Origin: Nitrosopumilus sp.
Lineage (GTDB): Archaea > Thermoproteota > Nitrososphaeria > Nitrososphaerales > Nitrosopumilaceae
Assembly (NCBI GenBank): GCA_965205675.1
Contig: OZ242186.1
Span: 1,664,001 to 1,728,000 of the forward strand
DNA length: 64,000 nucleotides
Reading direction: 5' to 3'
In this document: positions 16,069 to 32,747 of the stretch, in pieces
How the letters are laid out: each line of letters opens with the position of its first letter
Position numbering within the stretch: position 1 is the stretch's first letter
Notes under the pieces: generated by a model
What the model saw: the letters and a program-made list of their open reading frames with translations, nothing else
Databases searched by the model: none
Told to the model about the DNA's origin: nothing
Program-made: the position numbers and the translations under genes

Positions 16069-16592
16069 TATACAAACTTCCTAGCCTTCATCCTCTTAAT
16101 TTTTTCTTGCAATAACATACATCCTTGGATGAGAGTTTCAGGTCTAGGTGGACAACCTGGAACATAGACATCAACTGGAATTACTCCATCAATTCCTGGA
16201 AGTACATTGTATGAATCAAAATACAAACCTCCAGTAATTGCACAAGCACCCATAGCAATTACATACTTTGGTTCTGGCATTTGATCATAAACTAATCTGA
16301 GACGTGGTGCCATTTTTCTTGTAATAGTTCCTTGAACAACTACAAGATCACATTGTCTTAATGATCCAAATGCTTCAATGATGCCAAATCTTTCAACATC
16401 ATATCTAGGACTTGATGCTGCCCCAAATTCTACACTGCAACAAGCTGTTTCAATGTGAACAGGCCAGAGTGACCAAATTCTACCCCAGTTAATGGCATAG
16501 CCTAATGGTTTATCAATTGCTTTTTCTAAAATATCTCCTAACTTTCCTACAAAGACATTTGCATTTTCTGGTGTGACTAAATCTTTAAGCAA
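16068..16592 (-). CDS. nuoB: complex I subunit B
   Basis: ACCSVE, GAC and VDVYVPGCPPRPE. Confidence 0.95.
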   Translation of the reverse strand: MLKDLVTPENANVFVGKLGDILEKAIDKPLGYAINWGRIWSLWPVHIETACCSVEFGAASSPRYDVERFGIIEAFGSLRQCDLVVVQGTITRKMAPRLRLVYDQMPEPKYVIAMGACAITGGLYFDSYNVLPGIDGVIPVDVYVPGCPPRPETLIQGCMLLQEKIKRMKARKFV

Positions 16593-16632
16593 TTTTATCC
16601 CCTATCCCCGTAAATGTGATTTATATAAAAAA

Positions 16633-17007
16633 CTACCATATCCTTCTTTTCCCTGATTGATACAATGCAAAAGCCATTGCACCAAACATTATTGCTAAAA
16701 ATCCCATCATTGGCAAAGTTGCCATCTTTGGAATTTCTAAAAGTGCACTACCCCACGCATACAAGAAAATTGCCATTACATCAAAAACAACAAACATGAG
16801 AATGTATGGATAATACTGCATCATGAAATGAGTTCTTCCCTCACCTGTTGGAACTTGACCACATTCCATCGGCAAGAACTTTACAGGATTACTTCTTTTT
16901 CGAGGAGAAACCATTCTTGAAATAAAAAGAGCTGGAGCCATCGCTATTATACCAAACGCAAACATCAATACAACGGTACTGTAATTGCCCGCTAATTCCC
17001 CGACCAA
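16633..17007 (-). CDS. nuoA: complex I subunit A
   Basis: ECG and FVVFDV motifs; first gene of the operon. Confidence 0.93.
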   Translation of the reverse strand: MVGELAGNYSTVVLMFAFGIIAMAPALFISRMVSPRKRSNPVKFLPMECGQVPTGEGRTHFMMQYYPYILMFVVFDVMAIFLYAWGSALLEIPKMATLPMMGFLAIMFGAMAFALYQSGKRRIW

Positions 17008-17088
17008 TTTAGCTTTTCACCCTAATTTTTGTATATAATTCAATCGTTTTAGGCACATTTTTAAGGTATAATGGTAGATATTAAGTAA

Positions 17089-18039
17089 ATGTCTACCTTT
17101 CTTTCAAAAACCAAAAATCGAGTCAGTTTTGAGGAGAGAATACAGACAAAAGCAGTCAATACTCAAAAAACATCCCAGTCAGCAATAAGAAACTTTGAGA
17201 GATTTTGCAAGGAAAACTATGGCAAATCAATGGAGGAGACAATATCAGAATATCAGAGAGTTGAGATGGAACTAGTCTATGAATCTCTTCAAGAGTGGAT
17301 AAACTGGAACCATACAAAGATCCACTCAAACAGCATTCCCACACTGTTTTCATACCTCAAAACATATCTGAGATATCACAAGATAAGAATTACAAAGGAA
17401 GATGTGGCAGAACAGTTGAGTTTTCCTCACAAGGTCAGAGAGGAGAAACATCCATTGACAAAAGAAGAGATAAGAAAGATAATTCTAGTCAGCAACAAAA
17501 ATAACATGATCAAGTTTTTGGCACAGTTGTCAAGCGGTATGAGAAGGGGGGAATTGCTCCAATTGCGTAAAAAAGACCTTGATACTACTCAAAAGAGAAT
17601 CATGGTAAAGATTCCTGCAAGCATCACAAAGACAAAAAAGTCAAGGGTGACTTTTTTTAGCAAGGAGGTAAGGCCTTTGCTTATGCCAATTCTGAGAAAA
17701 CTATCTGATGAGGATGACAGGGTGTTTTTTCGTGGAAAGGCAAATCCTGCAAATATAAGCAATCACTACCAGTTGATTCTCACAAAGTATCTAAAAAAAG
17801 CAGGACTGGATCAAAAATATGAATCAGGACTGCACAAGATAACAACACACAGTTTTAGGGCATATTTTATCACAAAGGTATCGCGACACGATCCAAACTT
17901 GGCAAAATACTTTGCAGGACAAGAACAGGCAAGGGATTTGTTGATGTATGACAGATTGACAACAGATGAAAGGTTGGAAAATTATATCAAATTTGAGCCT
18001 GATTTGCTAATATATGACAACAATAGACGACAGAATTAG
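17089..18039 (+). CDS. tyrosine recombinase/integrase 1
   Basis: SGMRRGE, TKTK, HSFR and C-terminal LMY; the usual GH is replaced by GQ. Confidence 0.9.
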   Translation: MSTFLSKTKNRVSFEERIQTKAVNTQKTSQSAIRNFERFCKENYGKSMEETISEYQRVEMELVYESLQEWINWNHTKIHSNSIPTLFSYLKTYLRYHKIRITKEDVAEQLSFPHKVREEKHPLTKEEIRKIILVSNKNNMIKFLAQLSSGMRRGELLQLRKKDLDTTQKRIMVKIPASITKTKKSRVTFFSKEVRPLLMPILRKLSDEDDRVFFRGKANPANISNHYQLILTKYLKKAGLDQKYESGLHKITTHSFRAYFITKVSRHDPNLAKYFAGQEQARDLLMYDRLTTDERLENYIKFEPDLLIYDNNRRQN

Positions 18040-18162
18040 AAGGGGATGTTTTAGGGTTGCAAAAGCAAATAAAAATCTGTCATCAAGATTTTATCAAAAA
18101 ATTATTATAACAAATATGAAAAATGTATGTTATGAATACAGCACTCCAATATAGAAAAATTA

Positions 18163-19552
18163 GTAACTGTCTAGAGTTTTGAAGTAAAATCTCCAAGATA
18201 TTCTAAAGAATAATCATGAAAGTTTAATCCTCGTAATCTGCATGTCTCCTTTATACTCATCAGTATCTTATGAGAATCAGCACCATGAATGGTTCTATGA
18301 CCGTTTGTAATTTTACGAATTATCACATTTGGTCTGATTGCCCTCTCTGCTGTGTTATTGTGTGAATCAGTTCCAGTAATTAGGAATGTAAAAAGCATTT
18401 TTCTCTCACGTTTCAATCTTTTTACAAACCTGATACAGTTTTTCTCTGTGTATTTTTTTGATATGATGTGATTAATTCTCCTTTCAAGATTCTTTTTTGC
18501 ATGGATTCTTTCTGATTCTGATTTTATTTTTGCCACACCATGAGAGTCATAAATTATTTTCTTGAGATTCTTGGCAAATGGTGCAAATTCTGGTCCGGGA
18601 TTCTTGTGATTAATGGTATCATTAACCTCTCTGAGATAATGGATGTGACATTTCTGGTGAGTGCTTCCAACATGGTTCCATGCAGGGTACGAATCACTTG
18701 TAATGTTGCCATCATATCCCTTGAGAATTCTCTTGGGAACATCCATTGAACGTGATTTGTCAATCTCGTAAATTACAGTCCATTTACTCACAAATGCCCA
18801 CAACCAGTGGTTCTGGCCATCTACCCTCCAACTTGTCTCATCACCATGTATGTTTAGATCTTCTTTTAACTCCACAATCATTGTATCATATCTGCTCCCA
18901 AATGCTTTTGATACTATTGATACTGCATGATTAATTGCAGATTCTGTAATGTGCAGTGAGAAGAGCATCTGCAAAAGATGAGATATTTTACCATACGATA
19001 ATCCGATAGTTTTTAGTGATGTGATTAGCACCATGAGCCTAATTCCAAACCTTTCATTTGACAGTACAGTGTGAATGTTACCCGAGATTTGTTTTTTGCA
19101 GTTTGTGCAGTATCGTCTAACTATCGTATATTTTGTCACAACTGCTTTTGCAGGAATGATGTCTTCTACTATTCTGGTGTATGAATCAGTTGGTTCTGAG
19201 AGTGATTTGCCACATGTGTTGCACTCTTTTTGGTCAACTGTAATGGCATCATCAATGTGTGCCCGTCTGCTTCTGCTTTTTCTAGGATGTCTTGATGTTT
19301 TCTTCTTTTTTGCAGTTTCAGTCTTGTTTGGTTTTGCTTTGATATTTCTTGCAACAAGTGTAGACACTGTTTGTTTTAGTTCTGCAATTTCTCTGTGTAA
19401 CTGACGGTTTTCTTGCTCCAACGAGTGACATCTGTTGCGATAATATTCCAGCTCATCATATACTGACAATTGTATATTGTAATTTGTCACTGATCAGAAA
19501 AGATATAGATAAAAAATATTAAAGAAAGTACTTCAAAACTCTAGACAGTTAC
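18163..19552 (-). mobile_element. IS66-family (single-ORF, ISBst12-like) element with apparently intact transposase 18171..19490
   Basis: Perfect 24-bp TIRs GTAACTGTCTAGAGTTTTGAAGTA (18163..18186 and 19529..19552); coiled coil, CxxC..CxxC zinc finger, HGDETSW, HQKCHIHYLR and HNNTAERAIRP. Confidence 0.92.
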
Positions 19553-19767
19553 AATAGAATTTCTAATCTAATTTGTCTATCATTTATAATTATGATTTGT
19601 AATGTATATTAATAAATAAATTATTTCTTTTCCATCTCGTAAAAACAATTAGAACATAAATATTCATAATCTAGATATTCATCAAATGTGAAAACCCATT
19701 TCTCTTTTCCACAAGAATCACAAATTCCTACAGTTCTATTTGTACCATCATGCATTATTCTAATTAT

Positions 19768-20451
19768 TCAAGACTGTTTTATATCATCTACGTTATAATC
19801 CAGTCTATTTATCATGTTTACAGTAAGATCAAGATTGTTCATCAGTGCTTGGTCTTTGTCTGGATGAAGATTCTTTTTTATCTCATTTATACCTGATTCT
19901 ACCAGTACGCTTGCCATGTCGCGATAGTATCTTTTGTGGGAATCTCTGTATCTTGTATCTGCAATATCATCTGCATTACTGTAGGTTTTATGTCCTCCAA
20001 TATTTTGAGACGTGATACCCTGAGGATGGAATGTAAAGATAGCATCAAGCAAATGTTTTATTGTATCTGGACTAAATATGTCAGAGGCAAGCTCCCTTTG
20101 AAGAGCTTTGAAATATTGCAAAACATACTCTTCTCCCACCAGATTAAAACTCAGAGTAGATTTTATTATTTCAGGACTTAGGTTTGAATAGATTTCCCTG
20201 ATGTATTTTTTGTCCTTGTGGTTGGAGGTTCCGGTAATTTTATCAGGTGTTGTATTGGAGATTTTAATCATATCAGATAACAGGACAAATCCCTGCATAG
20301 AATTTGTTATTCTTGATATAATGTCATTTTTTGCCTTGGAGAGCCTCTTTGTCTCAGTCTTTGAGCGGTTCCCAACTCCAAATTCTTGATTGTAGTGGCC
20401 CTTTAGAAAGTCAAGTATCTTTCTTTCAAACTGGGTAATTTCATCAGGCAT
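19768..20451 (-). CDS. hypothetical protein in defence island
   Basis: 227-aa ATG ORF; no motif recognised. Confidence 0.6.
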   Translation of the reverse strand: MPDEITQFERKILDFLKGHYNQEFGVGNRSKTETKRLSKAKNDIISRITNSMQGFVLLSDMIKISNTTPDKITGTSNHKDKKYIREIYSNLSPEIIKSTLSFNLVGEEYVLQYFKALQRELASDIFSPDTIKHLLDAIFTFHPQGITSQNIGGHKTYSNADDIADTRYRDSHKRYYRDMASVLVESGINEIKKNLHPDKDQALMNNLDLTVNMINRLDYNVDDIKQS

Positions 20452-20508
20452 TGCTTAAAATTGGTAGAAGTTTTATTAAAATCTACTTTAATTCACATCT
20501 TTGCAGAG

Positions 20509-20658
20509 TTATGCTTTTACACATATCTTTCCAGTCAGTAATTTTTGCATCAGACCTTTCTTTAGAATTTCTAGCTTTTTCTTGTATTCCTGGTTTTTCT
20601 GAATGTATGCATCAACTCCAGACAGGATTGACGCAATTTGCTTTTGTTCTTTAATCAT
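20509..20658 (-). pseudogene. 49-aa HsdS C-terminal conserved-region fragment (not in ORF track)
   Basis: Manual translation MIKEQKQIASILSGVDAYIQKNQEYKKKLEILKKGLMQKLLTGKICVKA*, the canonical HsdS tail EQ..IA.IL...D...LKKGLMQKLLTG. Confidence 0.8.
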
Positions 20659-21418
20659 TGATACACAGTTAATATTGAATGATTTAGGTAAAAATAGAAA
20701 TTATGACTCTGGAAGCATGGATATGAAAGAGAACCTTCCAAAAGGATGGGTAAAAACAAAGATAGAATTGATTTGTGATCTCATAGGTGGTGGCACTCCT
20801 TCAAGGAAAAATTTAGAATATTTTAAAGACGGTCAAATAATTTGGTTAACACCAACTGAAATCAATAAAGAGAAAATATTAAAAATTAATTCTTCTAAAG
20901 AAAATATTACAGAATTAGGATTAACAAAAAGTTCCGCTAAATTAATACCTAGAAATGCAGTTTTATTAACATCTAGAGCTAGTATAGGATATGTTGCAAT
21001 AGCAGAAACAACAGTTACAACAAATCAAGGGATTTGCTTCATTCATATGCTCTAAAATTATCCATAATTATTTTTTAGCTTATTGGTTAAAGAGTAATAA
21101 AAATGTCTTAGAAGAAAATGCAACAGGAACAACATTTAAGGAAATTCCCAAATCTGTGATCAAAAAACTATCTATTGAAATTCCACCATTTTCTGAACAA
21201 AGAAGAATCGTCTCAAAAATTGAATCAATCTTCACACAGATTGATGCAGCAAAGGTGCAGCTTGAAAAACTTGCATTACAAACAAAGTCTACATCGGGAA
21301 GTTTATCTGCACTAAAGAGCAGTGTGCTAAAACAAGCCTTTGAAGGTAAGCTTGTTCCACAGGATCCCGATGATGAACCAGCAGAAATCTTGTTGAAGAA
21401 AATTCATGGCGATTCAAA
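20607..21418. repeat. ~810-bp inverted repeat, left arm (partner about 26800..27610), covering the hsdS upstream region, TRD1 and central conserved region
   Basis: Near-identical to the reverse complement of about 26800..27610, with a few SNPs and one extra A near 21028. Confidence 0.92.
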
Positions 21419-22064
21419 AGAATTAGTCTTTGAGAAAGAGAATCTTCCAAAGGGATGGATTCATGTTAGAATTAAAGATGTAGTTAATGATTCAAAACAA
21501 GATATTGTAGATGGTCCTTTTGGTTCTAATCTTAAATCATCTGAATATGTAAATAATGGTATTCCTTTAATCAGATTACAAAATATTGAACGAAATTATT
21601 TCATTAATAAAAATACAAAATATATTACAAAAGAAAAAGCTGAACAGTTGAAAAGACATAATTTTATTCAAAACGATATTGTAATAACAAAATTGGGTTT
21701 TCCTGTAGGAAAAGCATGTATTGTACCTCACATCCTAAAAACAGGAATAATTGTTGCAGATATTATAAGAATTAGAATGGATGAAGAATTTGTGTTAAGA
21801 AAATTTCTCATACATATAATAAATTCTGAAATAATCATAAAACAATTTAATGAACATACTAAAGGAACAACAAGACCAAGAGTAAATTTGACCAAATTTC
21901 GTAATTTTCAAATTCTCCTTCCACCACTCTCCGAACAAAAACGCATCGTCTCTAAAATTGAATCAATCTTTGATAGGATTGATGCAAGTATAGTATCTAT
22001 GAGAGATAAAATAATTTATAAAACATATCATTCATTTTCTCAAATTTATGGACATAATATTTGA
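20717..22064 (+). pseudogene. hsdS: type I R-M specificity subunit, silent copy (+1 frameshift near 21028; truncated after RIDA; alternative TRD2)
   Basis: ORFs 20603..21055 and 21156..22064; TRD1 identical to 26106..27542; different TRD2 (DGPFGSNL type). Confidence 0.88.
21932..21987. repeat. 56-bp perfect inverted repeat, inner pair (partner 26285..26340)
   Basis: CGAACAAAAACGCATCGTCTCTAAAATTGAATCAATCTTTGATAGGATTGATGCAA and its reverse complement. Confidence 0.92.
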
Positions 22065-22179
22065 TTTATATTATATTTTTCATTAAATCATCTAAAATAT
22101 TTTTAGGATGTCACAAATATGTTGTATTAATAATGATTTATTTTATAACCATCATAAATCTAAAAATTAGGAGTATAAA

Positions 22180-24546
22180 TTGAGCAACGAAAAGATTTCA
22201 GAATCAACTACTTGTATGCGTTTTATTGATCCAAAATTGAAAGATACTGGATGGGAATTAGATAAAATCGTTCGTGAATATTATATTAATAAAGGAAAAA
22301 TCATTCCAGAGGGTCGTACAGGAAAACGGAATGATCCAAATAAAGCAGATTATATTTTAAAACTAGGACTTGATTTTAAAATTGCAGTGATCGAAGCAAA
22401 GGCATGGGATAAACCTCATGATGAAGGAATGCAACAAGCTTTGATATATGCAGAAAAACTAAACCTACAATTTGCATATGCAACTAATGGACAAAAAATT
22501 GAAGAATATGATGTTACAACAAAACAACAAAGAACAATTGATAAATTCCCAACACCCGAAGAGTTACAAAAAAGATATAACGGACATAAGAATTTTGATG
22601 AAAAACAAATGAATGTTCTGTTGGAACCATTAGATAGAAGCTCAAAAGATCCTGGTGGGTCACCTATGGAACCAAGATATTATCAAGAAATTGCAATCAA
22701 TGCAGCATTAACATCAATCTTTGCAGGAAAGAAACGAATTTTGTTGAATCTTGCAACAGGAACAGGCAAGACCTTCATTGCTTATCAAATTGCACAAAAA
22801 TTATGGAATAAAGATAAACCACATCCAAAAATCTTATTTTTAGCAGATAGAACTATTTTATTGGATCAAGCAAGAAATAATGCATTTGCAAATTTTGGTG
22901 AAGCAAGACATAAAATCCAAAGAGTTGTACAAACTGCATTTGGAATGTATTTTGCATTATATCAAGCACTTGATGTAGAAAAAGAAAACGGTGAATTATA
23001 CAAACAATATCCAACAGATTTTTTTGATTATGTTATAATAGATGAATGTCATCGTGGAAGCTCAAATGAATCTGGGAATTGGAGGAAGATACTGGATCAT
23101 TTTTCTAATGCAATCCACATAGGTATGACTGCAACACCTAAACGAAATGATGAAAGCAAAGATACCTATGATTATTTTGGCACACCTGTATACACGTACA
23201 GCCTTAAACAAGGAATTGAGGATGGCTTTTTAGCACCATACATGATTCATAGAGTAAATCTTGAAATTGATATACAAGGATACAAACCAAAACCAGGTGA
23301 AAAAGATCTTGATGGAAAAATATTGGAAGATAGATTGTATACATACAAAGATTTTGACAGAATTTTAAGAGTAAATGAAAGACGAAAAGCAGTTGCAATG
23401 CATCTGGTAAACTTTTTAGAAAAAAATAATCAAAAATATAATAAAACAATTCTATTTTGCCAGAATTCTGAACATGCACTTGAAATGACTAAATTGATCA
23501 GAAATTATTCTGGAGAAAAACATGATTATTGTGTTAGAATAGTCTCTGCTGAAGGAGAAATAGGTCGTGAACATTTAGATCATTTTCAAGAACCTAATAG
23601 AGATTTTCCAGTTGTTGCAGTAACATCTAGATTGATGTCTACTGGTGTAGATGTACCTACATGTAAAATAATTGCATTAGACAAAAGCATTAACTCTATG
23701 ACCGAATTTAAACAGATAATAGGACGTGGCACACGTGTGTATGAACCGAAGGACAAGATGTGGTTTTCTATTATAGATTATAGGAAAACAACTCGATTAT
23801 TTGAAGATGTAGAATGGGATGGTCCACCTGCTGCTGAAACAGATGAAGATCGAGGAAGAATTACCAGAGAAAAAGAAGACAGGATGAAGGAAAAAGTAAA
23901 AAAGAGAATAGAAGAAGAAAGAAGGAAGATAGAAGAAGGAATATCATCTACATCCAGAGATCCAACAAATATTGAAACTTATCATATTGAAGGACATGAA
24001 GTTAAGATTATAGGTGAATCTGTATTGATATTTGATCAATCAATAGATGGTAACAGATTAATTACTTATCAGAATTATACAAAAGAGACTGTACGTCGTT
24101 TGATTAATGATGATCAAACAGAACTATACAAACTTTGGACGAATCCTGAAAATCGAAAACATTTTGTCGAAAAATTAAAAACTAGAGGAATAAATTTTGA
24201 ACATCTAAGAGAAATTACACAGATGTTTAAAGCAGATGCATTTGATTTGTTACTTCATTTTGCATTTAATGCAGATGCAAAAACTCGTTTAGAAAGAGTA
24301 AATTCTGTGCGTAAAAAACCTTTTTTGGAGAAATATCCAGATAAGGCACGAGAAGTTCTTGAGATAATTTTAGATCATTATGCTGATCATGGATATCAAG
24401 AATTAGAAGAAAGAGATATTTTGAAATTGCCACAATTCAAACAGTTTGGAGGTCCAGTAGAAATTATTAATGATAGATTCAAAGATGGTGATCAATATGA
24501 TGATGCCATAGTACAATTAACAAAAGAATTGTACTTGAATAATTGA
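22180..24546 (+). CDS. hsdR: type I restriction subunit R (EcoAI/EcoEI-like)
   Basis: ADY..IEAK nuclease motif, ATGTGKT, DECHR, MTATP and QIIGRGTR. Confidence 0.93.
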   Translation: MSNEKISESTTCMRFIDPKLKDTGWELDKIVREYYINKGKIIPEGRTGKRNDPNKADYILKLGLDFKIAVIEAKAWDKPHDEGMQQALIYAEKLNLQFAYATNGQKIEEYDVTTKQQRTIDKFPTPEELQKRYNGHKNFDEKQMNVLLEPLDRSSKDPGGSPMEPRYYQEIAINAALTSIFAGKKRILLNLATGTGKTFIAYQIAQKLWNKDKPHPKILFLADRTILLDQARNNAFANFGEARHKIQRVVQTAFGMYFALYQALDVEKENGELYKQYPTDFFDYVIIDECHRGSSNESGNWRKILDHFSNAIHIGMTATPKRNDESKDTYDYFGTPVYTYSLKQGIEDGFLAPYMIHRVNLEIDIQGYKPKPGEKDLDGKILEDRLYTYKDFDRILRVNERRKAVAMHLVNFLEKNNQKYNKTILFCQNSEHALEMTKLIRNYSGEKHDYCVRIVSAEGEIGREHLDHFQEPNRDFPVVAVTSRLMSTGVDVPTCKIIALDKSINSMTEFKQIIGRGTRVYEPKDKMWFSIIDYRKTTRLFEDVEWDGPPAAETDEDRGRITREKEDRMKEKVKKRIEEERRKIEEGISSTSRDPTNIETYHIEGHEVKIIGESVLIFDQSIDGNRLITYQNYTKETVRRLINDDQTELYKLWTNPENRKHFVEKLKTRGINFEHLREITQMFKADAFDLLLHFAFNADAKTRLERVNSVRKKPFLEKYPDKAREVLEIILDHYADHGYQELEERDILKLPQFKQFGGPVEIINDRFKDGDQYDDAIVQLTKELYLNN

Positions 24547-24580
24547 ATCATATTTAATGAGGATATAGGAAATATCACTA

Positions 24581-26059
24581 ATGGATGCACAATCACTTCG
24601 TTCTATAATAAAATCTGCAAGAGATCTAATGAGAAAAGATGCAGGTCTTAATACGGATGTCGATAGAATCCCTCAAATTGCATGGATTTTATTTTTAAAG
24701 AGTTTTGATGATTTTGAAAAAGAAAGAACAGCATTGAATAAAAAATATGTCGAGGCAATTCCCAAAGGATTACGATGGAGAGATTGGGCTGAAGATAAAA
24801 GTAAATCTTTGACAGGTCCGGATCTAATTTCTTTTGTCAATAATGAATTATTTCCTAAACTTGCAAAATTGGTAGGAGGAGAGGGTTTTGAACAAAGAGA
24901 TGTACTTGCATCAATCTTTAAAGAATTAAACAACAGGATATTAAGTGGATATGTTCTTAGACAAATTCTAAATCTGATAGACAAAGTAAATTTTGTAAAT
25001 ACTGATGATATTCACACAATGGCAAAACTCTATGAAGATATGTTAGTAGAAATGAGAGATGCTGCTGGTTCTAATGGCGAATTTTATACACCAAGACCTG
25101 TGATTAGATTTATTGTCAATCAAATTAACCCAAGTCTCAAAAAATCTGAAAAAATATTGGATCCTGCATGTGGCACAGGAGGATTTTTGATAGAATCTCT
25201 AGAATTTCTAAGAAATGAACAAAAGACAAAACATGACTTGAAAAAATTAACAACCAAGACATTATTTGGAATTGAGAAAAAACCAATGCCATATCTATTG
25301 GGGATGATGAATTCATTATTACATGAACTTGACAAACCAAACATTATCAGAACTAATACACTAGCTAAACCATTAAGAGAAATATCTGTAAACAATCAAT
25401 ATGATATCATCATCACAAATCCTCCATTTGGTGGAGAAGAAGAAGAAGGAATATCATCTAATTTACCTGTTGGTTTTCAAACATCAGACACTGCACTTGC
25501 ATTTTTGTTGTATATCATGTATTCATTAAAAGATGGAGGGCGTTGTGGGATTATTCTTCCAGATGGTCCAATGTTTGCAGGAGGAATGGCTGCCAAGATC
25601 AAGAAAAAATTAATTGAAGAATTTAACTTGCATACAATAATTAGACTTCCTAGAACCGTTTTCGAACCATATACAACAATTGCCACAAATATTTTATTTT
25701 TTGATAAAACCACTCCTACCAAAGAAATATGGTATTATCAGATGCATGTAAATGAGCGATTAAGAGGAGTTACCCGTGCAAAAAATCCAAAATATACTAA
25801 ATCAAATCCAATTGCATATGAGGATTTTTCAGAGATTGAAAAATGGTTTAAAAATAAAAAGACAAATAAAAATGCATGGAAAGTAAATATCAAAGATATT
25901 CAAGATTATAATCTTGATTCCAATAACCCAAAAGATGTGACAGAAACAATTGTACTGCCACCAGATGAATTGATAGATTCATTCATCAGTATAAGAAAAG
26001 ATATGATCAAAGCGTTTGAGGATGTAAAGAATATCATATCTAAAGAAATTCCAAAATAA
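24581..26059 (+). CDS. hsdM: type I N6-adenine methyltransferase subunit M
   Basis: GEFYTPR, DPACGTGGFL and NPPF motifs. Confidence 0.95.
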   Translation: MDAQSLRSIIKSARDLMRKDAGLNTDVDRIPQIAWILFLKSFDDFEKERTALNKKYVEAIPKGLRWRDWAEDKSKSLTGPDLISFVNNELFPKLAKLVGGEGFEQRDVLASIFKELNNRILSGYVLRQILNLIDKVNFVNTDDIHTMAKLYEDMLVEMRDAAGSNGEFYTPRPVIRFIVNQINPSLKKSEKILDPACGTGGFLIESLEFLRNEQKTKHDLKKLTTKTLFGIEKKPMPYLLGMMNSLLHELDKPNIIRTNTLAKPLREISVNNQYDIIITNPPFGGEEEEGISSNLPVGFQTSDTALAFLLYIMYSLKDGGRCGIILPDGPMFAGGMAAKIKKKLIEEFNLHTIIRLPRTVFEPYTTIATNILFFDKTTPTKEIWYYQMHVNERLRGVTRAKNPKYTKSNPIAYEDFSEIEKWFKNKKTNKNAWKVNIKDIQDYNLDSNNPKDVTETIVLPPDELIDSFISIRKDMIKAFEDVKNIISKEIPK

Positions 26060-26105
26060 TTATTTATTCAAAAATTACCATCAATTATTTCAGTAGTAAT
26101 TATAT

Positions 26106-27542
26106 TTATGATCTACATTTTTGAGATTTTATTTTTTCTAATAGAATTGATGCGGGTTCATCATTTGGATCTTGTGGAACTAATTTTCCCTCAAAAGCTT
26201 GCTTCAAAATACTACTTTTTATAGCATTTATACTATCGGGTATATTTTTTAATTTAGATTCTAAAATTGTAATCTCTTGTTGTTTTGCATCAATCCTATC
26301 AAAGATTGATTCAATTTTAGAGACGATGCGTTTTTGTTCGTTTAGCGGTGGGAGAGGAATTAAAAATTCAGATATTTTTTTAAAATTAATACGAGGATGT
26401 TGCACTCCAGTCATATTTGCATTTGCATATGTAACAAAATTATTAGTACGTAAAAATAACGATATGAACATATTTGAAAAATTAGTTATATTTTGGAAGA
26501 CCAAAATATCTGTAGAGCATACACCATCAAAGATAGGAATACATACTTTGTTAAGATAAGGACGCAATCTACCATACAAAATATCACCTGATTTGAATAT
26601 TGTTTTTGTACTAGTGAGTTCTTTCGAATCACCTCTGCCAATAATTTTTCCTGTGTTACTTTCAACATGTTCTAATCCAAGAAATATTCTATTTGTATTG
26701 CTAGTTGGATCAAATCTTTCCTTAGAAGGTTCGATCATATGTCCAATTTTTGTTCTGATCCATCCTTTTGGAAGATTATCTTTCTTAAATTTTAATTCCT
26801 TTGAATCGCCATGAATTTTCTTCAACAAGATTTCTGCTGGTTCATCATCGGGATCCTGTGGAACAAGCTTACCTTCAAAGGCTTGTTTTAGCACACTGCT
26901 CTTTAATGCAGATAAACTTCCCGATGTAGACTTTGTTTGTAATGCAAGTTTTTCAAGCTGCACCTTTGCTGCATCAATCTGTGTGAAGATTGATTCAATT
27001 TTTGAGACGATTCTTCTTTGTTCAGAAAATGGTGGAATTTCAATAGATAGTTTTTTGATCACAGATTTGGGAATTTCCTTAAATGTTGTTCCTGTTGCAT
27101 TTTCTTCTAAGACATTTTTATTACTCTTTAACCAATAAGCTAAAAAATAATTATGGATAATTTTAGAGCATATGAATGAAGCAAATCCCTGATTTGTTGT
27201 AACTGTTGTTTCTGCTATTGCAACATATCCTATACTAGCTCTAGATGTTAATAAAACTGCATTTCTAGGTATTAATTTAGCGGAACTTTTTGTTAATCCT
27301 AATTCTGTAATATTTTCTTTAGAAGAATTAATTTTTAATATTTTCTCTTTATTGATTTCAGTTGGTGTTAACCAAATTATTTGACCGTCTTTAAAATATT
27401 CTAAATTTTTCCTTGAAGGAGTGCCACCACCTATGAGATCACAAATCAATTCTATCTTTGTTTTTACCCATCCTTTTGGAAGGTTCTCTTTCATATCCAT
27501 GCTTCCAGAGTCATAATTTCTATTTTTACCTAAATTATTCAA
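26106..27542 (-). CDS. hsdS: type I specificity subunit S, complete copy (start probably at MDMKEN)
   Basis: Two TRDs, each followed by EQ.RIVSKIE...KSS.LKQAFEGKLVPQDP. Confidence 0.93.
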   Translation of the reverse strand: MNNLGKNRNYDSGSMDMKENLPKGWVKTKIELICDLIGGGTPSRKNLEYFKDGQIIWLTPTEINKEKILKINSSKENITELGLTKSSAKLIPRNAVLLTSRASIGYVAIAETTVTTNQGFASFICSKIIHNYFLAYWLKSNKNVLEENATGTTFKEIPKSVIKKLSIEIPPFSEQRRIVSKIESIFTQIDAAKVQLEKLALQTKSTSGSLSALKSSVLKQAFEGKLVPQDPDDEPAEILLKKIHGDSKELKFKKDNLPKGWIRTKIGHMIEPSKERFDPTSNTNRIFLGLEHVESNTGKIIGRGDSKELTSTKTIFKSGDILYGRLRPYLNKVCIPIFDGVCSTDILVFQNITNFSNMFISLFLRTNNFVTYANANMTGVQHPRINFKKISEFLIPLPPLNEQKRIVSKIESIFDRIDAKQQEITILESKLKNIPDSINAIKSSILKQAFEGKLVPQDPNDEPASILLEKIKSQKCRS

Positions 27543-27797
27543 TATTAACTGTGTATCAATGATTAAAGAACAAAAGCAAATTGAATCAATCCTGTCTGGA
27601 GTTGACGCATCACATTATGCACAATTCATAGTCATTACAAGTTTACGTATGAGAGTAACAATACTTTTAATACTTTTTACAAGAGTTTAGGAAAGTTGTA
27701 CATGAATTGGAAATCTAATTCGTAAGGTAGACACAAATTATTTCTCTTTATTTCATATTGTCAGATTTTTATACCAAATACACACAATAAGAAATAC

Positions 27798-28010
27798 ATG
27801 AAATTTAGAATATTCATAAAACAGGATGATGATGGAATATTTGTCTCAGAAGTTCCAGAACTTCCTGGATGTATATCTCAAGGAGATACGAGAGAAGATG
27901 CAGTAATTAACATCAAAGATGCAATTTCAGGGTACATCACAAGTCTAAAAAAACATGATGAACCAATACCTTTCTCAATTGATGAAGAGACTGTAGAGAT
28001 ACATGTCTAA
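27798..28010 (+). CDS. hicB: HicB-family antitoxin (short, no DNA-binding domain)
   Basis: VPELPGCISQGDTREDA..NIKDAI. Confidence 0.9.
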   Translation: MKFRIFIKQDDDGIFVSEVPELPGCISQGDTREDAVINIKDAISGYITSLKKHDEPIPFSIDEETVEIHV

Positions 28011-28227
28011 ACTACCCATTACTTCTGCAAGAGATTTACTCAAGATATTACATAAAATTGGGTATGATGTTGACCATCAAACAGGAAGTCACATAATATT
28101 GAGAAACAAAGATTATCCTCACAGAAGAATAACTGTTCCAAATCATAAAGAAATAGCAAGAGGTACATTACGTTCCATAATAAAACAGTCAGGATTAACT
28201 CTGGAAGAATTTTTGAAAATGTCCTAA
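28003..28227 (+). CDS. hicA: HicA-family mRNase toxin
   Basis: GSH..L, ITVPNH and GTLRSIIKQ. Confidence 0.9.
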   Translation: MSKLPITSARDLLKILHKIGYDVDHQTGSHIILRNKDYPHRRITVPNHKEIARGTLRSIIKQSGLTLEEFLKMS

Positions 28228-28335
28228 GTTGATTTTTTCTTGATATGTGATTTTTCTTATTTGATTTTCTCCAATAGGATCGATGCTGGCTGAGAGTAAC
28301 AATACTTTTAATACTTTTTACAAGAGTTTTACATC

Positions 28336-28551
28336 ATGAGTTTTACAGTACAAAAAAAGACATACACTGTAATCATAACACCTGATGAAATTGACGGTGG
28401 TTTTGTTGGTAGATGTGATGAATTACATGCTTATTCGCAGGGTGAAACATATGGGGAGATCATGGAGAATATGAAAGAAGCAATAGAAGTATCAATAGAG
28501 GATGGGAACATGCATGAATTTAACATGCTCATTGTTCAAAGCCACAAATGA
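28336..28551 (+). CDS. hicB: HicB-family antitoxin 2
   Basis: SQGETYGEIMENMKEAI. Confidence 0.85.
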   Translation: MSFTVQKKTYTVIITPDEIDGGFVGRCDELHAYSQGETYGEIMENMKEAIEVSIEDGNMHEFNMLIVQSHK

Positions 28552-28766
28552 CAAGGATTCTCAAGATTTCAGGTAATGCAATGATAAGATATTGTACCAA
28601 AAAGAGATTCACCATACTTAGACAGAGAGGGAGTCACGTAAGGCTAAGAAAAGAGAGTATGTTTGTAACTGTTCTAGCTGGAAACAACACACTAAAAACT
28701 GGAACACTTTTGGGATTGTTAGAAGAGATTAACATTAATAGAGATGAGTTCATCCAAATGAAATGA
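28548..28766 (+). CDS. hicA: HicA-family toxin 2
   Basis: RQRGSHVRL and LKTGTLLGLL; ATGA overlap with hicB. Confidence 0.82.
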   Translation: MTRILKISGNAMIRYCTKKRFTILRQRGSHVRLRKESMFVTVLAGNNTLKTGTLLGLLEEININRDEFIQMK

Positions 28767-28897
28767 AAATAGACTTGTAAAATAATACAATCTAAAAATT
28801 ATGATTATTACATTTTAGAATTTCAATATGAAAATAAAATAATCCACATTCATAAACACATGTACAGAAATAGCAACATTGTAAAAAGATCACATAC

Positions 28898-29836
28898 TTG
28901 GTAATGACAATAACAAAACAACGAAGCATGGTATTATTTGAAGAGTCAATAAAATCACAATATACTAAAAAGAATTACACATCACACATGAATCAATTTA
29001 TGAAATTTCTAAATATCAATAATATGAATCAGTTACTGTTAATTCCAAAGCCAAACTTGCAGAATTCATTAGAAGATTACCTGATAGAATTAAAACAAAA
29101 CATGAATCCAAATACAATACCATCAAAATTTCAAGGAATAAAGCATTTTTGTGTCATGAATCAAATCGATTTGAACTGGAACATAATACATAAAATGTTT
29201 CCACAAAAACAAAAACCTCAAAATTTAAGATCCTACACCACGCAAGAAGTTGGAGAAATATTATCCAATACAACAAGTCTTAGAAACAAGGCTTTGATTC
29301 ATTTTTTGGCATCAACTGGAGCCAGAATAGGAGTATTTGATCATAAATTATCAATGAATCATATTAAAAAAATGCCTCATGGCTGTAATGCAGTAAAACT
29401 CTATGCAGGGCATGTAGAGGAATATTGGAGTTTTCTTACCCCTCAGGCCTCAAAGGCATTGAATGCTTATCACCAATATCGCAAACAATGCGGTGAAATA
29501 TTTTCTGAAAATGCTCCAGTCTTTGCTACAATGAAAACAGACTGTGGGCAACTTGGATGGAGTGGGGCAAGATCAACGATATACAGAATACTCTCAAAGA
29601 GCGACGTCAAGAGAAACAAGATTGAATATAGATATGATGTGCAGACAGACCACGGATTTAGAAAGAGATTCAACACCATACTCAAGATTAACAATTCTGT
29701 AAACTATAACATTGCAGAAAAGCTGATGGGTCACAAGAACGGCCTTGATGGAGTATATCTGACACCCACTCTAGATGAACTGTTTGTAGAATTTAAAAAA
29801 ATTATAAAGAAACTGGAGACAAGTCCAGAGAAATAA
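28898..29836 (+). CDS. tyrosine recombinase/integrase 2
   Basis: STGARIG, HGFRK, LMGH and GVY catalytic set. Confidence 0.9.
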   Translation: MVMTITKQRSMVLFEESIKSQYTKKNYTSHMNQFMKFLNINNMNQLLLIPKPNLQNSLEDYLIELKQNMNPNTIPSKFQGIKHFCVMNQIDLNWNIIHKMFPQKQKPQNLRSYTTQEVGEILSNTTSLRNKALIHFLASTGARIGVFDHKLSMNHIKKMPHGCNAVKLYAGHVEEYWSFLTPQASKALNAYHQYRKQCGEIFSENAPVFATMKTDCGQLGWSGARSTIYRILSKSDVKRNKIEYRYDVQTDHGFRKRFNTILKINNSVNYNIAEKLMGHKNGLDGVYLTPTLDELFVEFKKIIKKLETSPEK

Positions 29837-30471
29837 CAGAGATAATGACTAGTTAGATTATGATTATTTTTCAACTAGAAAATTTTAATTTAGTTGATAT
29901 CAGAAAATAATAAAACATCTATCAATGTCACTTGCAATATTCAATGTTAGAATACAATAATTTACAACATGTTGAGAATATACGGAGATGAGTTTAGATG
30001 GAAAATGTTGGAAACCCACTAGCTCTTTTTTCCACGCATGAAAAATATCCAATCCCACGCATGGGAAAAGAGTTCAATCCGTCTAAAACACACATTCAAC
30101 GTTTTCCAATGAGTAGAGCAGGTGTTGGAATGACTTTATCTGATTCTGTCAATCATATACAAGCCAACGTTTTACAACGCATGGAATTAATTCATGATCC
30201 AAGATGTTCCAACAAAAAGCTAATCATAGCCAACTGAAAGAAAATTATACTCGCTAACCAATTGAAACAATTCAGCTATAAAGTACAAACAGTTGCAATG
30301 TGTTCTTGATTAATTATGTCATTTTATTTTTAAATCTGAATCCAAAAACGATCAACAAAAACCTTCATTGTACTTTATAATCAATTTGTACAATATAGCA
30401 CAAGTATGACCTGCAATATTGTTTAAAATCATCATTACGCAATCAATAAATTATACTAGTTATACTATCTA

Positions 30472-31569
30472 TACTTCCTAACATAAGTTCGTCAACCATC
30501 CTCTCGTTGCATATACTTGAGAATGTCTAAATTGAATCGTCTGGTTCTGTAATATTTGGAGATGTTATTTTTCAGATTACTTAGAGATGGTTGATACTGT
30601 GACACCAACAAATTGTATTTTCCTTGCTTCCATACTTCCTCAACTGCATTGAACTGTGGTGAGCCTTTTGGAAACCAATTCAATAGAACATCATCTGCAT
30701 TCTCATCAAGATATTTTTGTACTAGTTTTGATCTGTGTTGTGGTGCTCGGTCTACATAGACTAGAATCTTGCCAAACTTTCTGTGCAATTCCTTTAGATA
30801 ATCCAAAAAACAGTACTGATCAAATTTTTCATATTGTCTGAATAATTGCCTGCCGTCATGAGTCAGTGCACCAAAAATGATTGTTTTTTGATGTGACCCG
30901 TTTACTAGAATAATTGGACGGGTTCCTTTCTTTACCCACATCTTTTTTCTAAATATCGCATCAGCAGTAAAGATGGACTCATCTTGTGCAAGAACTGTAA
31001 AGCCTTTTGCTATTTTTGAGGCTATTTGTTCTTTGGAGTTTTTTTAAACCAGAGTTTTTCCTCAACACTAGCTGAATTTACAAATCTCTTTGCTGCAACC
31101 TTTGGAACAAATCCCCATTTGTGTAATAATCTGTACACATGAACCTCATGATATTTTACACCTGATTTTTGATAAATCAGATTCATCACTTGCTTTGCAC
31201 TCCAGCCGGATTGTTTTTCTGCAATTTGTAGTTGAATGCTGACTAGTTTCTTTTTTGGTATACTAGTTGGTCTGCCAGTTCTAGGCAAGTCTTGCAGTCC
31301 TGCAATTCCATATTCTGCAAATCTATCTAACCATTTGTATGCCCATGAACGTACACGTCCAAGATTCTTTGCAACATGTGATGCAATTTGGTTCTCAAGT
31401 AATACTCGCTTTATCAAAAATAGCCTTTCTTTTACCTTGACGTTCTTTTCATCTTTGTATGCTTGAATTAATTTTTGATTATTCATGGTTTGATGTGTAA
31501 TGTTTTGATCAATATGGCATTTGGTAAAATAAATCAGATCAACAGATCATAAAATTTTGTTAGAGAGTA
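30472..31569 (-). mobile_element. IS630-family element, two ORFs (31022..31486 HTH; 30492..~31020 DDE) probably joined by a programmed frameshift
   Basis: Imperfect TIRs TACTTCCTAACA / TGTTAGAGAGTA flanked by TA on both sides; A7 run at the ORF junction; QDES, VDRAPQH and SPQFNAVEEVW. Confidence 0.88.
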
Positions 31570-31763
31570 TAATGTAACATGCAATCAAAAAATTCTATTA
31601 TAATTTCTAATAATGTCTACCAGTTTTTATCAACAATACAAGTTAATTTTTTTGTAACTAGCAGAAGTTGTTTTGTATAAAAAGGTATGTTTCATTTTGG
31701 ATCAAAATCTGAAAAAAATTATTTTTGTAAAAGACTTAATAGGATAACGTCAAAAAAACGATC

Positions 31764-32741: not shown

Positions 32742-32747
32742 TTATCA

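What the first reader, a model, noticed from the sequence alone, without database searches (positions are those of the whole stretch)
20607..27610. Candidate archaeal type I R-M shufflon: convergent hsdS copies with nested inverted repeats around hsdRM, between two tyrosine recombinases
Seen: hsdR-hsdM is flanked by two convergent hsdS genes. They share an ~810-bp inverted repeat (upstream region, TRD1, central region; 20607..21418 vs ~26800..27610), carry unrelated TRD2s, and then share a perfect 56-bp inner inverted repeat (21932..21987 vs 26285..26340). Only the right copy has the C-terminal tail; the left stops being HsdS exactly where the inner repeat ends. Inference: inversion at the inner pair moves the single tail (with hsdRM) to the other TRD2. 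Combined inner and outer inversions would swap TRD2 in the intact gene and change half of the recognition site. Established: recombinase-driven hsdS inversion underlies phase-variable methylomes in bacteria such as Streptococcus pneumoniae and Mycoplasma pulmonis. I know of no characterised archaeal case, and enclosing hsdRM within the invertible segment is unusual.
Basis: partly seen in the sequence, partly recalled or inferred. Interest (0 to 1): 0.88.

Follow-up and report, generated by a model that had tools for sequence, protein, structure and literature searches.

The report
Probable invertible hsdS switch in Nitrosopumilus
A marine ammonia-oxidising archaeon carries a restriction-modification system whose DNA-recognition gene looks built to be re-wired by DNA inversion, as in some bacteria, next to a recombinase of a kind often found beside such genes in related archaea, but no reads yet show it flipping.

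Summary
Two convergent hsdS copies flank hsdR-hsdM. They share an 860-bp inverted repeat (20602-21460 / 26758-27616, 98.4%) and a perfect 56-bp inner repeat (21932-21987 / 26285-26340). Their TRD2s are 24.7% identical, and only the right copy has the C-terminal tail. In-silico inversions therefore give two ON states (TRD1+TRD2-R, TRD1+TRD2-L) and two OFF states.

The locus lies in a 14.6-kb island (17036-31670) in a Nitrosopumilus genome, bounded by a 9-bp direct repeat.

The two recombinases differ:
- The left one (17089-18039) looks like the island integrase.
- The right one (28898-29836) belongs to a clade found next to hsdS in 23 of 38 Nitrosopumilaceae loci, against 1 of 21 for paralogues. 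In 8 loci it sits between opposed hsdS genes.

The repeats centre on a conserved quasi-palindromic 11-8-11 motif, a plausible recombinase core.

Related species carry the recombinase module in both orientations relative to hsdM. No read-level proof of inversion was obtainable, because only contigs were available.

Verdict: a probable hsdS inverton and a new member of a known kind. It may be the first such family noted in Thaumarchaeota, since my literature searches found none. Confidence 0.55, interest 0.62.

The parts
17027..17035 (.). Left copy of the 9-bp direct repeat TTTTGTATA bounding the island (putative att core or target duplication)
   Evidence: Empty sites in G177, G312 and G305 hold one copy. 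The left flank aligns up to 17035 and the right flank from 31671.
17089..18039 (+). rec1: tyrosine recombinase, probable island integrase
   Evidence: Pfam Phage_integrase 2.8e-16. Weak matches to XerA. It lies 82 bp from nuoA. Close homologues also abut nuoA in G283 and G327. A 48-aa fragment lies 82 bp from nuoA in G189, and a split copy lies about 1.9 kb from nuoA in G373.
18163..19552 (-). IS66-family insertion sequence (transposase 18171-19490) with 43-bp terminal inverted repeats
   Evidence: Pfam DDE_Tnp_IS66 2.8e-32. Terminal repeats. About 25 or more copies in the genome.
19768..20451 (-). 227-aa ORF of unknown family that travels with the rec2 module in relatives
   Evidence: No Pfam or NCBIfam hit. 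Homologues lie next to rec2 in L117, L124, L141 and L033.
20509..20658 (-). Orphan HsdS C-terminal fragment (motif X plus tail) with no TRD upstream
   Evidence: Translation. Its first ~44 bp form the outer end of the outer repeat.
20602..21460 (+). Outer inverted repeat, left arm (upstream region, TRD1, central conserved region)
   Evidence: 98.4% identity over 860 columns to 26758-27616.
20603..22064 (+). Left hsdS copy. It is frameshifted by an extra A at 21027, carries TRD2-L (about 21440-21931), and lacks the C-terminal tail.
   Evidence: TRD2-L has full-length HsdS homologues, up to 73% identity over 90% of the query.
21219..21247 (+). CR1 core motif ATTGAATCAATC-N8-GATTGATGC (partner at 26971-26999, minus strand)
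   Evidence: The 8-nt spacers are identical in the two copies.
21932..21987 (+). Inner inverted repeat, left arm (holds the CR2 core motif at 21957-21985)
   Evidence: perfect 56 bp.
22180..24546 (+). hsdR
   Evidence: Pfam ResIII 1.5e-37, EcoEI_R_C 1.9e-29.
24581..26059 (+). hsdM
   Evidence: Pfam N6_Mtase 2e-64, HsdM_N.
26106..27542 (-). Right, intact hsdS (TRD1, CR1, TRD2-R, CR2, C-terminal tail)
   Evidence: Pfam Methylase_S 4.2e-39 with two stretches. NCBIfam type I S subunit.
26285..26340 (-). Inner inverted repeat, right arm (CR2 core at 26287-26315)
26758..27616 (-). Outer inverted repeat, right arm
27798..28766 (+). Two tandem HicB/HicA-like toxin-antitoxin pairs (27798-28010, 28003-28227, 28336-28551, 28548-28766). 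Each is preceded by the same 39-bp direct repeat (27650-27688, 28291-28329).
   Evidence: Pfam HicB_lk_antitox 2.5e-11; HicA_toxin 5.5e-20 and 1.4e-06. The third ORF has no Pfam hit and is named by position only. Repeat.
28898..29836 (+). rec2: Xer/Cre-like tyrosine recombinase of an hsdS-associated clade, the candidate invertase
   Evidence: Pfam Phage_integrase 5.9e-7. R143, R255, H279 and Y287 are invariant and H252 nearly invariant in 30 sequences. AlphaFold model pLDDT 81.6, with best folds XerA and Cre. Clade context.
30492..31486 (-). Split IS630-family transposase
   Evidence: NCBIfam transpos_IS630 4.2e-23 and 5e-21. Pfam DDE_3.
31671..31679 (.). Right copy of the 9-bp direct repeat bounding the island

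Best explanation
[quoted passage not shown] It is carried on a 14.6-kb integrated island of a Nitrosopumilus chromosome.

Anatomy:
- Both hsdS copies carry the same upstream region, TRD1 and central region.
- They differ in TRD2. One C-terminal tail is shared between them.

Proposed switching (inferred):
- Recombination between the inner repeats (CR2) flips hsdR-hsdM together with the tail.
- Recombination between the outer repeats (CR1) exchanges the TRD2s.
- Together these convert TRD1+TRD2-R into TRD1+TRD2-L and change one half of the bipartite target.
- Because the left copy is frameshifted, the two single-inversion isomers lack any intact hsdS and are OFF states.
- In every isomer the tail-less copy lies upstream of hsdR-hsdM on the same strand, so the duplicated upstream region could keep driving them.

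Proposed catalyst (inferred): the neighbouring Xer/Cre-like recombinase rec2 (28898-29836). It would act on a quasi-palindromic 11-8-11 core (TTGAATCAATC-N8-GATTGATGCAA) embedded in the codons of each conserved region. The differing spacers keep CR1 from recombining with CR2.

Shown: the anatomy, the in-frame recombinants, the clade association, and the conservation of the motif.
Inferred: that inversion happens now, that rec2 does it, and that the motif is its site.
For: Repeat geometry and near-identity.

Simulated isomers:
- Current: 478 aa, TRD1+TRD2-R+tail.
- Inner plus outer inversion: 496 aa, TRD1+TRD2-L+tail, in frame.
- The two single inversions give no intact gene.

TRD2-L is open over 302 aa. 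It has many full-length HsdS homologues, the best at 73% identity over 90% of the query.

rec2 looks like an active recombinase:
- R143, R255, H279 and Y287 are invariant and H252 nearly invariant in 30 aligned sequences.
- The predicted fold best matches XerA and Cre.

Clade context:
- Of 38 rec2-clade loci (at least 54% identity, window included), 23 have hsdS within the fetched flanks.
- In 8 loci rec2 lies between two opposite-strand hsdS genes.
- Among 21 loci of 37-49% paralogues, 1 has hsdS nearby.

Partner hsdS copies in relatives share inverted repeats with long perfect runs: 186, 287, 102, 73, 54 and 50 bp.

Core motif:
- It is present at both CR1 and CR2 of both copies here and in relatives.
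- Codons 10-12 and 16 of the motif (GAA TCA ATC ... ATT) are invariant in 26 of 26 distinct sequences from 10 loci, while the same residues elsewhere in the motif use several codons.
- The 8-nt spacers are identical between partners in 9 of 10 pairs I read off, and they differ between CR1 and CR2.

Comparative inversion: the hic-rec2 module aligns on the opposite strand relative to hsdM in G327 and G373 compared with G269, G391 and G400, at 72-88% nt identity.
Against: - No read or contig shows an alternative junction for this locus. The one assembly has one orientation.
- The left copy is frameshifted and tail-less, as a decaying pseudogene would be.
- The outer repeat keeps 12 mismatches and 2 single-base gaps, so homogenisation is not continuous.
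- rec2 with its HicBA genes also occurs without any hsdS nearby in 15 of 38 loci. It also sits at the island edge next to the peroxiredoxin gene in the window, G189 and G299 (with one ORF between in G387), as an integrase would.
- The motif's conservation could come from shared ancestry and protein constraint. The 26 sequences are related, and no hsdS outside the rec2 context had the same peptide to serve as a control.
- An 860-bp repeat can recombine by general homologous recombination without any dedicated enzyme.
Confidence: 0.55

Rival explanations
1. Static relic. The left copy is a dead remnant of an old duplication or rearrangement in an IS-rich island. The locus no longer switches, and the system has one fixed specificity (TRD1+TRD2-R).
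For: - Frameshift at 21027 and a missing tail in the left copy.
- Only one orientation in the assembly.
- No alternative junction seen.
- The genome has many IS66 copies, and the island also holds IS630 remnants and an orphan hsdS tail, so it has a history of rearrangement.
Against: - 98.4% identity over 860 bp and a perfect 56 bp lie next to TRD2s that are only 24.7% identical.
- TRD2-L remains an open frame with close functional-looking homologues.
- The recombinant gene is in frame.
- rec2 is intact with conserved catalytic residues.
Confidence: 0.25
2. The locus does invert or gene-convert, but by general homologous recombination across the long repeats. Both tyrosine recombinases are integrases of mobile islands and play no part.
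For: - The outer repeat is 860 bp, ample for homologous recombination.
- rec1 and rec2 sit at the two edges of an island bounded by a 9-bp direct repeat.
- rec2 plus HicBA occurs without hsdS in 15 of 38 loci.
- Passages of PMC6563490 list XerC/D-type integrases and type I R-M genes among common cargo of thaumarchaeal integrated elements.
Against: - rec2-clade genes sit between opposed hsdS genes, within or beside type I gene clusters, in 8 loci. In G309 (L027) rec2 lies between hsdS' and hsdS with hsdM and hsdR on either side.
- Paralogues show hsdS linkage in only 1 of 21 loci.
- The inner repeat is only 56 bp.
- Homology ends exactly at the end of the motif's right arm, in both the inner and the outer repeat.
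Confidence: 0.17
3. Assembly artefact. The long inverted repeat or one hsdS copy was created by mis-assembly.
For: Long inverted repeats can be produced by chimeric long reads. I could not inspect the reads behind the assembly.
Against: - The genome is a single 2.01-Mb contig rated 99.88% complete.
- Contigs of independent runs X1 and X3 cover TRD2-L (21389-21961) with no differences. TRD2-R is covered with no differences over 26311-26823 in X1 and 26311-26629 in X3.
- Relatives show the same kind of paired hsdS.
Confidence: 0.03

Closest known systems
Streptococcus pneumoniae SpnD39III / cod locus (hsdS inversions by the tyrosine recombinase PsrA/CreX)
   Same: - A type I R-M system with one expressed and one or more partial hsdS copies in inverted orientation.
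- Inverted repeats inside the hsdS conserved regions.
- A locus-linked tyrosine recombinase.
- TRD shuffling changes the methylation target.
Source: abstracts and passages of PMC4948785, PMC7672463 and PMC4190663.
   Different: - Here hsdR-hsdM lie inside the invertible segment and the recombinase lies outside it.
- Only TRD2 differs between the copies.
- The left copy is frameshifted, so OFF states are predicted.
- The host is a free-living archaeon.
- rec2 has no significant sequence match in the PDB and only weak NCBIfam XerA/XerC/XerD matches below cut-off. I did not compare it directly with PsrA.
Mycoplasma pulmonis hsd1/hsd2 loci (HvsR recombinase, vip and hrs sites)
   Same: - Inversions generate both new specificities and loss-of-function variants (passage of PMC4948785; table in PMC5149525).
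- As I recall from Sitaraman and Dybvig 1997 and Dybvig et al. 1998, hsdS genes in inverted orientation flank hsdR and hsdM, so the hsd genes invert with the element.
   Different: - The layout is recalled only, because the original papers were not held.
- It is a bacterial host.
- The recombinase is encoded elsewhere and also serves the vsa locus.
- The recombination sites are different.
Predicted 'epigenetic invertons' in Euryarchaeota (Huang et al. 2020, PMC7672463)
   Same: They are archaeal type I loci with several hsdS genes and an invertase homologue: 4 loci in the REBASE screen and 11 in the NCBI screen (Tables 1 and 2).
   Different: - They were found by homology to bacterial invertase clades (clades 2 and 5) and were not tested experimentally.
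- No Thaumarchaeota are listed in the tables.
- The species lists are in supplements that I could not open.
Enterococcus faecalis T8-type locus (hsdM, hsdSA, efiA, hsdSB, hsdR)
   Same: It shows that the gene order around the invertible hsdS pair varies, with hsd genes on both sides (passage of PMC7672463). The same is seen in G269/G391-type Nitrosopumilus loci.
   Different: The recombinase lies between the hsdS copies there. In the window it lies outside them and hsdRM lie between.

Membership tests
Phase-variable type I R-M (hsdS inverton / shufflon) | Complete type I system (hsdR, hsdM, hsdS) | tested here: met
   Pfam and NCBIfam hits for all three. It is the only hsdM and the only full-length hsdR match in the genome; one weak partial HsdR-like hit (25.5% over 235 columns) lies elsewhere.
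Phase-variable type I R-M (hsdS inverton / shufflon) | Two or more hsdS copies in inverted orientation, at least one incomplete | tested here: met
   Left copy on the plus strand, frameshifted and tail-less. Right copy on the minus strand, intact.
Phase-variable type I R-M (hsdS inverton / shufflon) | Inverted repeats located in the hsdS conserved regions, so that crossover keeps the frame | tested here: met
   The repeats cover CR1 and the start of CR2. The simulated recombinant is an open 496-aa hsdS.
Phase-variable type I R-M (hsdS inverton / shufflon) | Different TRDs in the copies | tested here: met
   TRD2-L vs TRD2-R: 41/166 identical. TRD1 is shared.
Phase-variable type I R-M (hsdS inverton / shufflon) | Site-specific recombinase gene in or beside the locus | tested here: met
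   rec2 starts 1.36 kb from the right hsdS. Its clade is linked to hsdS in 23 of 38 loci, against 1 of 21 for paralogues.
Phase-variable type I R-M (hsdS inverton / shufflon) | Several orientations coexisting in one clonal population | not testable with these tools
   All runs offered are kept as Logan contigs, which break at the repeats. The read laying cap was 1.
Phase-variable type I R-M (hsdS inverton / shufflon) | Switching methylation motifs | not testable with these tools
   No kinetic or signal-level sequencing data were available.
Tyrosine recombinase (Xer/Cre-like, two domains) - rec2 | Catalytic R...HxxR...H/W...Y and the fold | tested here: met
   R143, R255, H279 and Y287 are invariant and H252 is at least 90% conserved in 30 sequences. 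Model pLDDT 81.6. Foldseek best hits are XerA 5hxy (E 1.3e-07) and Cre. Assigning these residues to catalytic roles is my reading of the motif order; it was not checked by superposition.
Archaeal XerA (chromosome dimer resolvase) | Score above the NCBIfam equivalog cut-off | tested here: not met
   rec1 scores 68.8 bits and rec2 56.2 bits against a cut-off of 220. Neither should be filed as XerA.
Integrated mobile element with tyrosine integrase | Insertion absent from relatives, bounded by a direct repeat, with an integrase gene at an end | tested here: met
   In most of the 40 genus relatives that matched, window 14300-17038 abuts 31671-34200. A 9-bp repeat is present once in three empty sites. 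rec1 lies 53 bp inside the left end.

The most novel reading that the evidence does not exclude
Nitrosopumilaceae, which are free-living marine and freshwater ammonia oxidisers, carry a family-wide class of programmed hsdS invertons.

Proposed features:
- They are served by their own Xer/Cre-like recombinase clade, usually packaged with HicAB toxin-antitoxin pairs.
- The recombinase recognises an 11-8-11 core written into the codons of the HsdS conserved helices.
- Spacer identity sorts CR1 from CR2 crossovers.

This would be the first phase-variable methylome system in Thaumarchaeota. It would also show that such switches are not chiefly a trait of host-associated bacteria.
Probability: 0.4. 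Interest if true: 0.78.

Novelty: new member of a known kind. Interest (0 to 1): 0.62.

Why it matters
Inverting hsdS loci are known as bacterial, mostly host-associated, bet-hedging devices that change restriction specificity and the methylome. In one survey 216 of 235 species were host-associated (PMC7672463).

- **Ecology.** A working example in Nitrosopumilus would extend the mechanism to abundant free-living archaea, for which virus defence is its likely use.
- **A testable enzyme-site pair.** rec2 and the 29-bp core give a concrete archaeal site-specific inversion system to test.
- **Metagenomics.** A switching locus would warn that methylation motifs and hsdS alleles in ammonia-oxidiser metagenomes may vary within clones.
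- **Annotation.** The finding flags a recurrent module (hsdS pair, rec2, HicAB) that annotation pipelines would read as an integrase plus pseudogenes.

Tried and rejected
**Read evidence.**
- The look-up of sequencing runs listed 5 holders from 3 studies. All are kept as Logan contigs.
- Read laying on X1, X3, X4 and X5 gave contigs that stop about 30 nt inside the repeats, so they cannot tell the isomers apart.
- The one joint reported (20759 to 26359, opposite strands, shorter side 35 nt, at min_likeness 90) comes from a much deeper sister strain. It falls in conserved TRD-start and TRD-end motifs. I could not interpret it and draw nothing from it.
- In X3 contig depths halve beyond 26213. 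Depths are one figure per contig, so I draw nothing from this either.
- Bins without cover (20822-21095) are no finding.

**Searches for the same locus elsewhere.**
- 300 family genomes searched with hsdRM DNA gave no match above 73% identity.
- Metagenome contigs searched with HsdM gave a best match of 79%, all with the ordinary hsdR>hsdM>hsdS order.
- Viral contigs gave nothing.
- A protein search with the left ORF found no relative at 90% identity or more that would represent the TRD1+TRD2-L+tail allele.

**Other negative or unavailable results.**
- phmmer of rec2 against the PDB gave nothing.
- Rfam found only three tRNAs in the window.
- The sigma-70 promoter scan was not used because the host is archaeal.
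- Dybvig et al. 1998 (PMC24968) and the M. pulmonis genome paper (PMC55444) are not held, so the M. pulmonis layout stays a recollection.
- Supplements are closed. Table S5 of PMC7672463, Data Set S3 of PMC7394358 and Data S2 of PMC10028968 may list archaeal loci that I could not see.

**Literature claim.** No paper in the held library was found that links Thaumarchaeota or Nitrosopumilus with hsdS inversion. This rests on searches. In one search, only one of the 12 papers listed holds 'hsdS' alongside the thaumarchaeal terms, and its title and abstract concern biotin genes.

**Considered and rejected.**
- That either recombinase is XerA: both score far below the cut-off.
- That the convergent hsdS orientation is just one switch state: all four simulated isomers keep hsdS convergent with hsdM.

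Full report
**Observation**

The window lies at 1,664,001-1,728,000 of a single-contig 2.01-Mb genome rated 99.88% complete. The host is an archaeon:
- It has a fused RpoA'/A'' gene and an archaeal RpoB.
- Overall G+C is about 33%.
- The closest species representatives are all titled Nitrosopumilus.

- The outer repeat is 20602-21460 vs 26758-27616, 860 columns at 98.4% identity.
- The inner repeat is a perfect 56 bp, 21932-21987 vs 26285-26340.

Pfam names the genes:
- HsdR at 22180-24546.
- HsdM at 24581-26059.
- An intact two-TRD HsdS at 26106-27542 on the minus strand.
- Methylase_S pieces in the left copy.
- Phage_integrase domains at 17089-18039 (rec1) and 28898-29836 (rec2).

The TRD2s are 24.7% identical (41/166). 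After the inner repeat the right copy continues into a 59-aa tail, while the left copy runs into unrelated sequence and a stop.

- An extra A at 21027 frameshifts the left copy.
- The outermost ~44 bp of the outer repeat is the beginning of yet another HsdS conserved-region motif on the opposite strand. On the left it continues into a typical HsdS C-terminus (20509-20658, minus strand). On the right it does not.

Homology therefore breaks directly after the same motif position ('..DA') at both the inner repeat and the outer edge of the outer repeat.

**Context**

I compared window 14300-34200 with 40 genomes of the genus. In most of those that matched, 14300-17038 abuts 31671-34200 directly. 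Three empty sites hold one copy of TTTTGTATA, which is present at both ends here (17027-17035 and 31671-31679). The hsd locus therefore sits in a 14.6-kb island between nuoA and a peroxiredoxin gene.

The island also holds:
- rec1 at its left edge.
- An IS66 element. The genome has about 25 or more copies.
- A 227-aa ORF of unknown family.
- Two HicB/HicA pairs.
- rec2.
- A split IS630 transposase.

Island G+C is 0.30-0.32, against 0.34-0.38 in the left flank and about 0.33-0.34 in the right.

**What inversion would do**

I simulated the inversions in a script and printed only ORF summaries.

| Isomer | hsdS products |
|---|---|
| Assembled state | 478 aa TRD1+TRD2-R+tail |
| Inner inversion only | Frameshifted left copy carries the tail; 444-aa right copy has none |
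| Outer inversion at CR1 only | Likewise no intact gene |
| Both inversions | In-frame 496 aa TRD1+TRD2-L+tail |

- An outer crossover upstream of the frameshift simply moves the intact gene to the left site.
- In all isomers the tail-less copy lies upstream of hsdR-hsdM on the same strand, and the intact hsdS is convergent with hsdM.
- The upstream region is duplicated inside the outer repeat. It could therefore drive hsdRM in every state. This is inference.
- TRD2-L is not decayed. It is open over 302 aa and resembles many full-length HsdS proteins, the best at 73% identity over 90% of the query.

**The two recombinases are not equivalent**

rec1:
- Close rec1 homologues (76-77%) again abut nuoA in G283 and G327.
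- In G189 a 48-aa fragment lies 82 bp from nuoA, and in G373 a split copy lies about 1.9 kb from nuoA.
- More distant homologues show no hsdS within 1.5 kb.
- rec1 thus behaves as the integrase of this insertion site.

rec2:
- It has homologues in 126 of 401 Nitrosopumilaceae genomes at E<=1e-40.
- I fetched up to 7 kb on each side of the clade at 54% identity or more. I scanned these loci with a panel of 120 HsdS proteins plus the window's proteins.
- After dropping one duplicate (L081 = L120), 23 of 38 loci (window included) have hsdS.
- In 8 loci (G269, G391, G388, G016, G100, G037, G309, G327) rec2 lies between two hsdS genes on opposite strands. The typical layout is hsdS> [hicAB rec2 hicAB] <hsdS.
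- Of the 15 loci without hsdS, five are on short contigs.
- As a control, 21 loci of paralogues at 37-49% identity (20 relatives plus the genome's own) gave hsdS in 1.
- The type I systems beside rec2 in relatives are often of another family (HsdM 25-34% identical to the window's). The linkage therefore appears to be to hsdS and not to one particular system.

rec2 as an enzyme:
- The clade keeps R143, R255, H279 and Y287 invariant and H252 nearly invariant.
- An AlphaFold model (pLDDT 81.6) best matches archaeal XerA and Cre. These are simple two-domain recombinases that act on roughly 30-bp sites.
- Neither rec1 nor rec2 reaches the XerA equivalog cut-off.

**A candidate core site**

Each conserved region of these hsdS genes contains ATTGAATCAATC-N8-(G/A)ATTGA(T/C)GC. 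Its arms, TTGAATCAATC and TTGCATCAATC, are inverted copies matching at 10 of 11 positions.

Codon evidence:
- Across 26 distinct sequences from 10 rec2-linked loci, the codons GAA-TCA-ATC and the later ATT are invariant.
- Glu, Ser and Ile elsewhere in the same 18-residue motif use two or three codons.

Spacer evidence (read):
- The 8-nt spacer differs between CR1 (TTCNCNCA) and CR2 ((T/C)TTGNNNN).
- It is identical between partner copies in 9 of 10 pairs.

A second HsdS subfamily, also linked to rec2 (G016, G100, G388, G037), has a related motif (ATTGCATCAATCC...GAGTTGA(T/C)GC). The window's orphan motif X is of that type.

This pattern is what a Cre/Xer-like core would look like. The sequences are related, however, and no hsdS outside the rec2 context carried the same peptide. 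It therefore remains a hypothesis.

**Comparative signs of inversion**

- Partner hsdS genes in relatives share inverted repeats with long perfect runs: 186 bp in G269, 287 in G391, 102 in G037, 73 in G016, 54 in G309 and 50 in G387.
- Five species share a homologous system at 72-88% nt identity. In G327 and G373 the hic-rec2 module aligns on the opposite strand relative to hsdM when compared with G269, G391 and G400.
- In G387 and G001 hsdM lies between the two hsdS copies. hsd genes inside the invertible segment are therefore not peculiar to the window.
- These are differences between species. They show that such segments have flipped in evolution. They do not show that this strain switches now.

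**Direct test failed**

The public runs that hold the stretch are kept only as contigs.
- They confirm that both TRD2s exist with no differences in two runs of one study.
- They show that a far deeper sister strain has about 99% identical hsdRM.
- They break at the repeats and cannot distinguish isomers.
- No near-identical locus was found in 300 family genomes, in metagenome contigs or in viral contigs.

**Literature**

- Inverting hsdS loci are well described in bacteria (PMC4948785, PMC4190663, PMC7394358, PMC7672463; abstracts and passages).
- Tables 1-2 of PMC7672463 already list Euryarchaeota loci (4 and 11) among predicted invertons. A passage of the same paper reports that 216 of 235 species were host-associated.
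- PMC9881135 states that it scanned bacteria only.
- PMC10028968 had only 42 archaeal long-read sets, none thaumarchaeal by its text.
- PMC6563490 lists type I S, M and R subunits among common genes of thaumarchaeal integrated elements. The passages I saw do not mention inversion.
- Four searches found no paper linking Thaumarchaeota with hsdS inversion.
- Supplements were closed and may hold relevant lists.
- The M. pulmonis layout (hsdS genes flanking hsdR and hsdM) is recalled. The originals were not held.

**Verdict**

The best reading is an hsdS inverton on an integrated island, with rec2 as the probable invertase and rec1 as the island integrase (confidence 0.55).

Rivals:
- A static relic (0.25).
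- Switching by homologous recombination only (0.17).
- An assembly artefact (0.03).

It is a new member of a known kind. Its interest lies in the host, a free-living ammonia-oxidising archaeon, in the evidence that the module recurs across Nitrosopumilaceae, and in a testable enzyme-site pair.

Noticed in passing
window 20509-20658 (minus strand) and 27559-27690 (plus strand): There is an orphan HsdS C-terminal fragment of a second subfamily (motif X, IASILSGVDA type) at the left edge of the outer repeat. The right edge keeps only the motif start. In runs X1 and X3, loose ends at 20639 in the deeper sister strain continue into what reads like a TRD end. That strain may therefore still have the full gene there.
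   Followed up: partly
window 27650-27688 and 28291-28329: A perfect 39-bp direct repeat precedes each of the two hicB/hicA pairs. A similar sequence recurs near hic genes in G327 (L030 8994-9019 and 12137-12162). It may be a shared operator or promoter.
   Followed up: no
window 18163-19552 and genome-wide: An IS66-family element is present in about 25 or more nearly identical copies in this 2.01-Mb genome, which points to recent IS expansion. One copy also lies next to the rec1 paralogue at G000 589933-593238.
   Followed up: partly
G000:C1:1629810-1639470 (24-34 kb left of the window): This stretch holds short remnants of a rec2-like gene (25 aa, 68%), a match (89% over 35 nt) to the motif-X end of the outer repeat, and an hsdS conserved-region fragment. 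They suggest a second, decayed rec2-hsdS module in the same genome.
   Followed up: no
L117 (G387:C1:270300-285300): At the same chromosomal site (next to the peroxiredoxin gene), the order is hsdR+, hsdS+, hsdM-, hsdS-, rec2+. hsdM is on the opposite strand to hsdR and lies between two hsdS copies that share 50-bp perfect repeats. This looks like an assembled 'flipped' state.
   Followed up: partly
runs X1 and X3 laid on window 20000-28200: The runs are dominated by a sister strain at contig depth about 1100 (X1) and 344 (X3), with about 99% identical hsdRM but no cover of the window's TRD2s. The window's own sequence appears at depth about 15. In X3 the sister strain's contig ends at 26213 and the continuing contig has about half the depth. 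I could not interpret this from contigs.
   Followed up: no
window 19768-20451 (minus strand): A 227-aa ORF without any family hit has homologues beside rec2 or rec1 homologues in several relatives (L117, L124, L141, L033, L169, L170). It may be a further part of the mobile module.
   Followed up: no
window 47870-51661: RNA polymerase subunits A' and A'' are encoded as one 1263-aa ORF.
   Followed up: no
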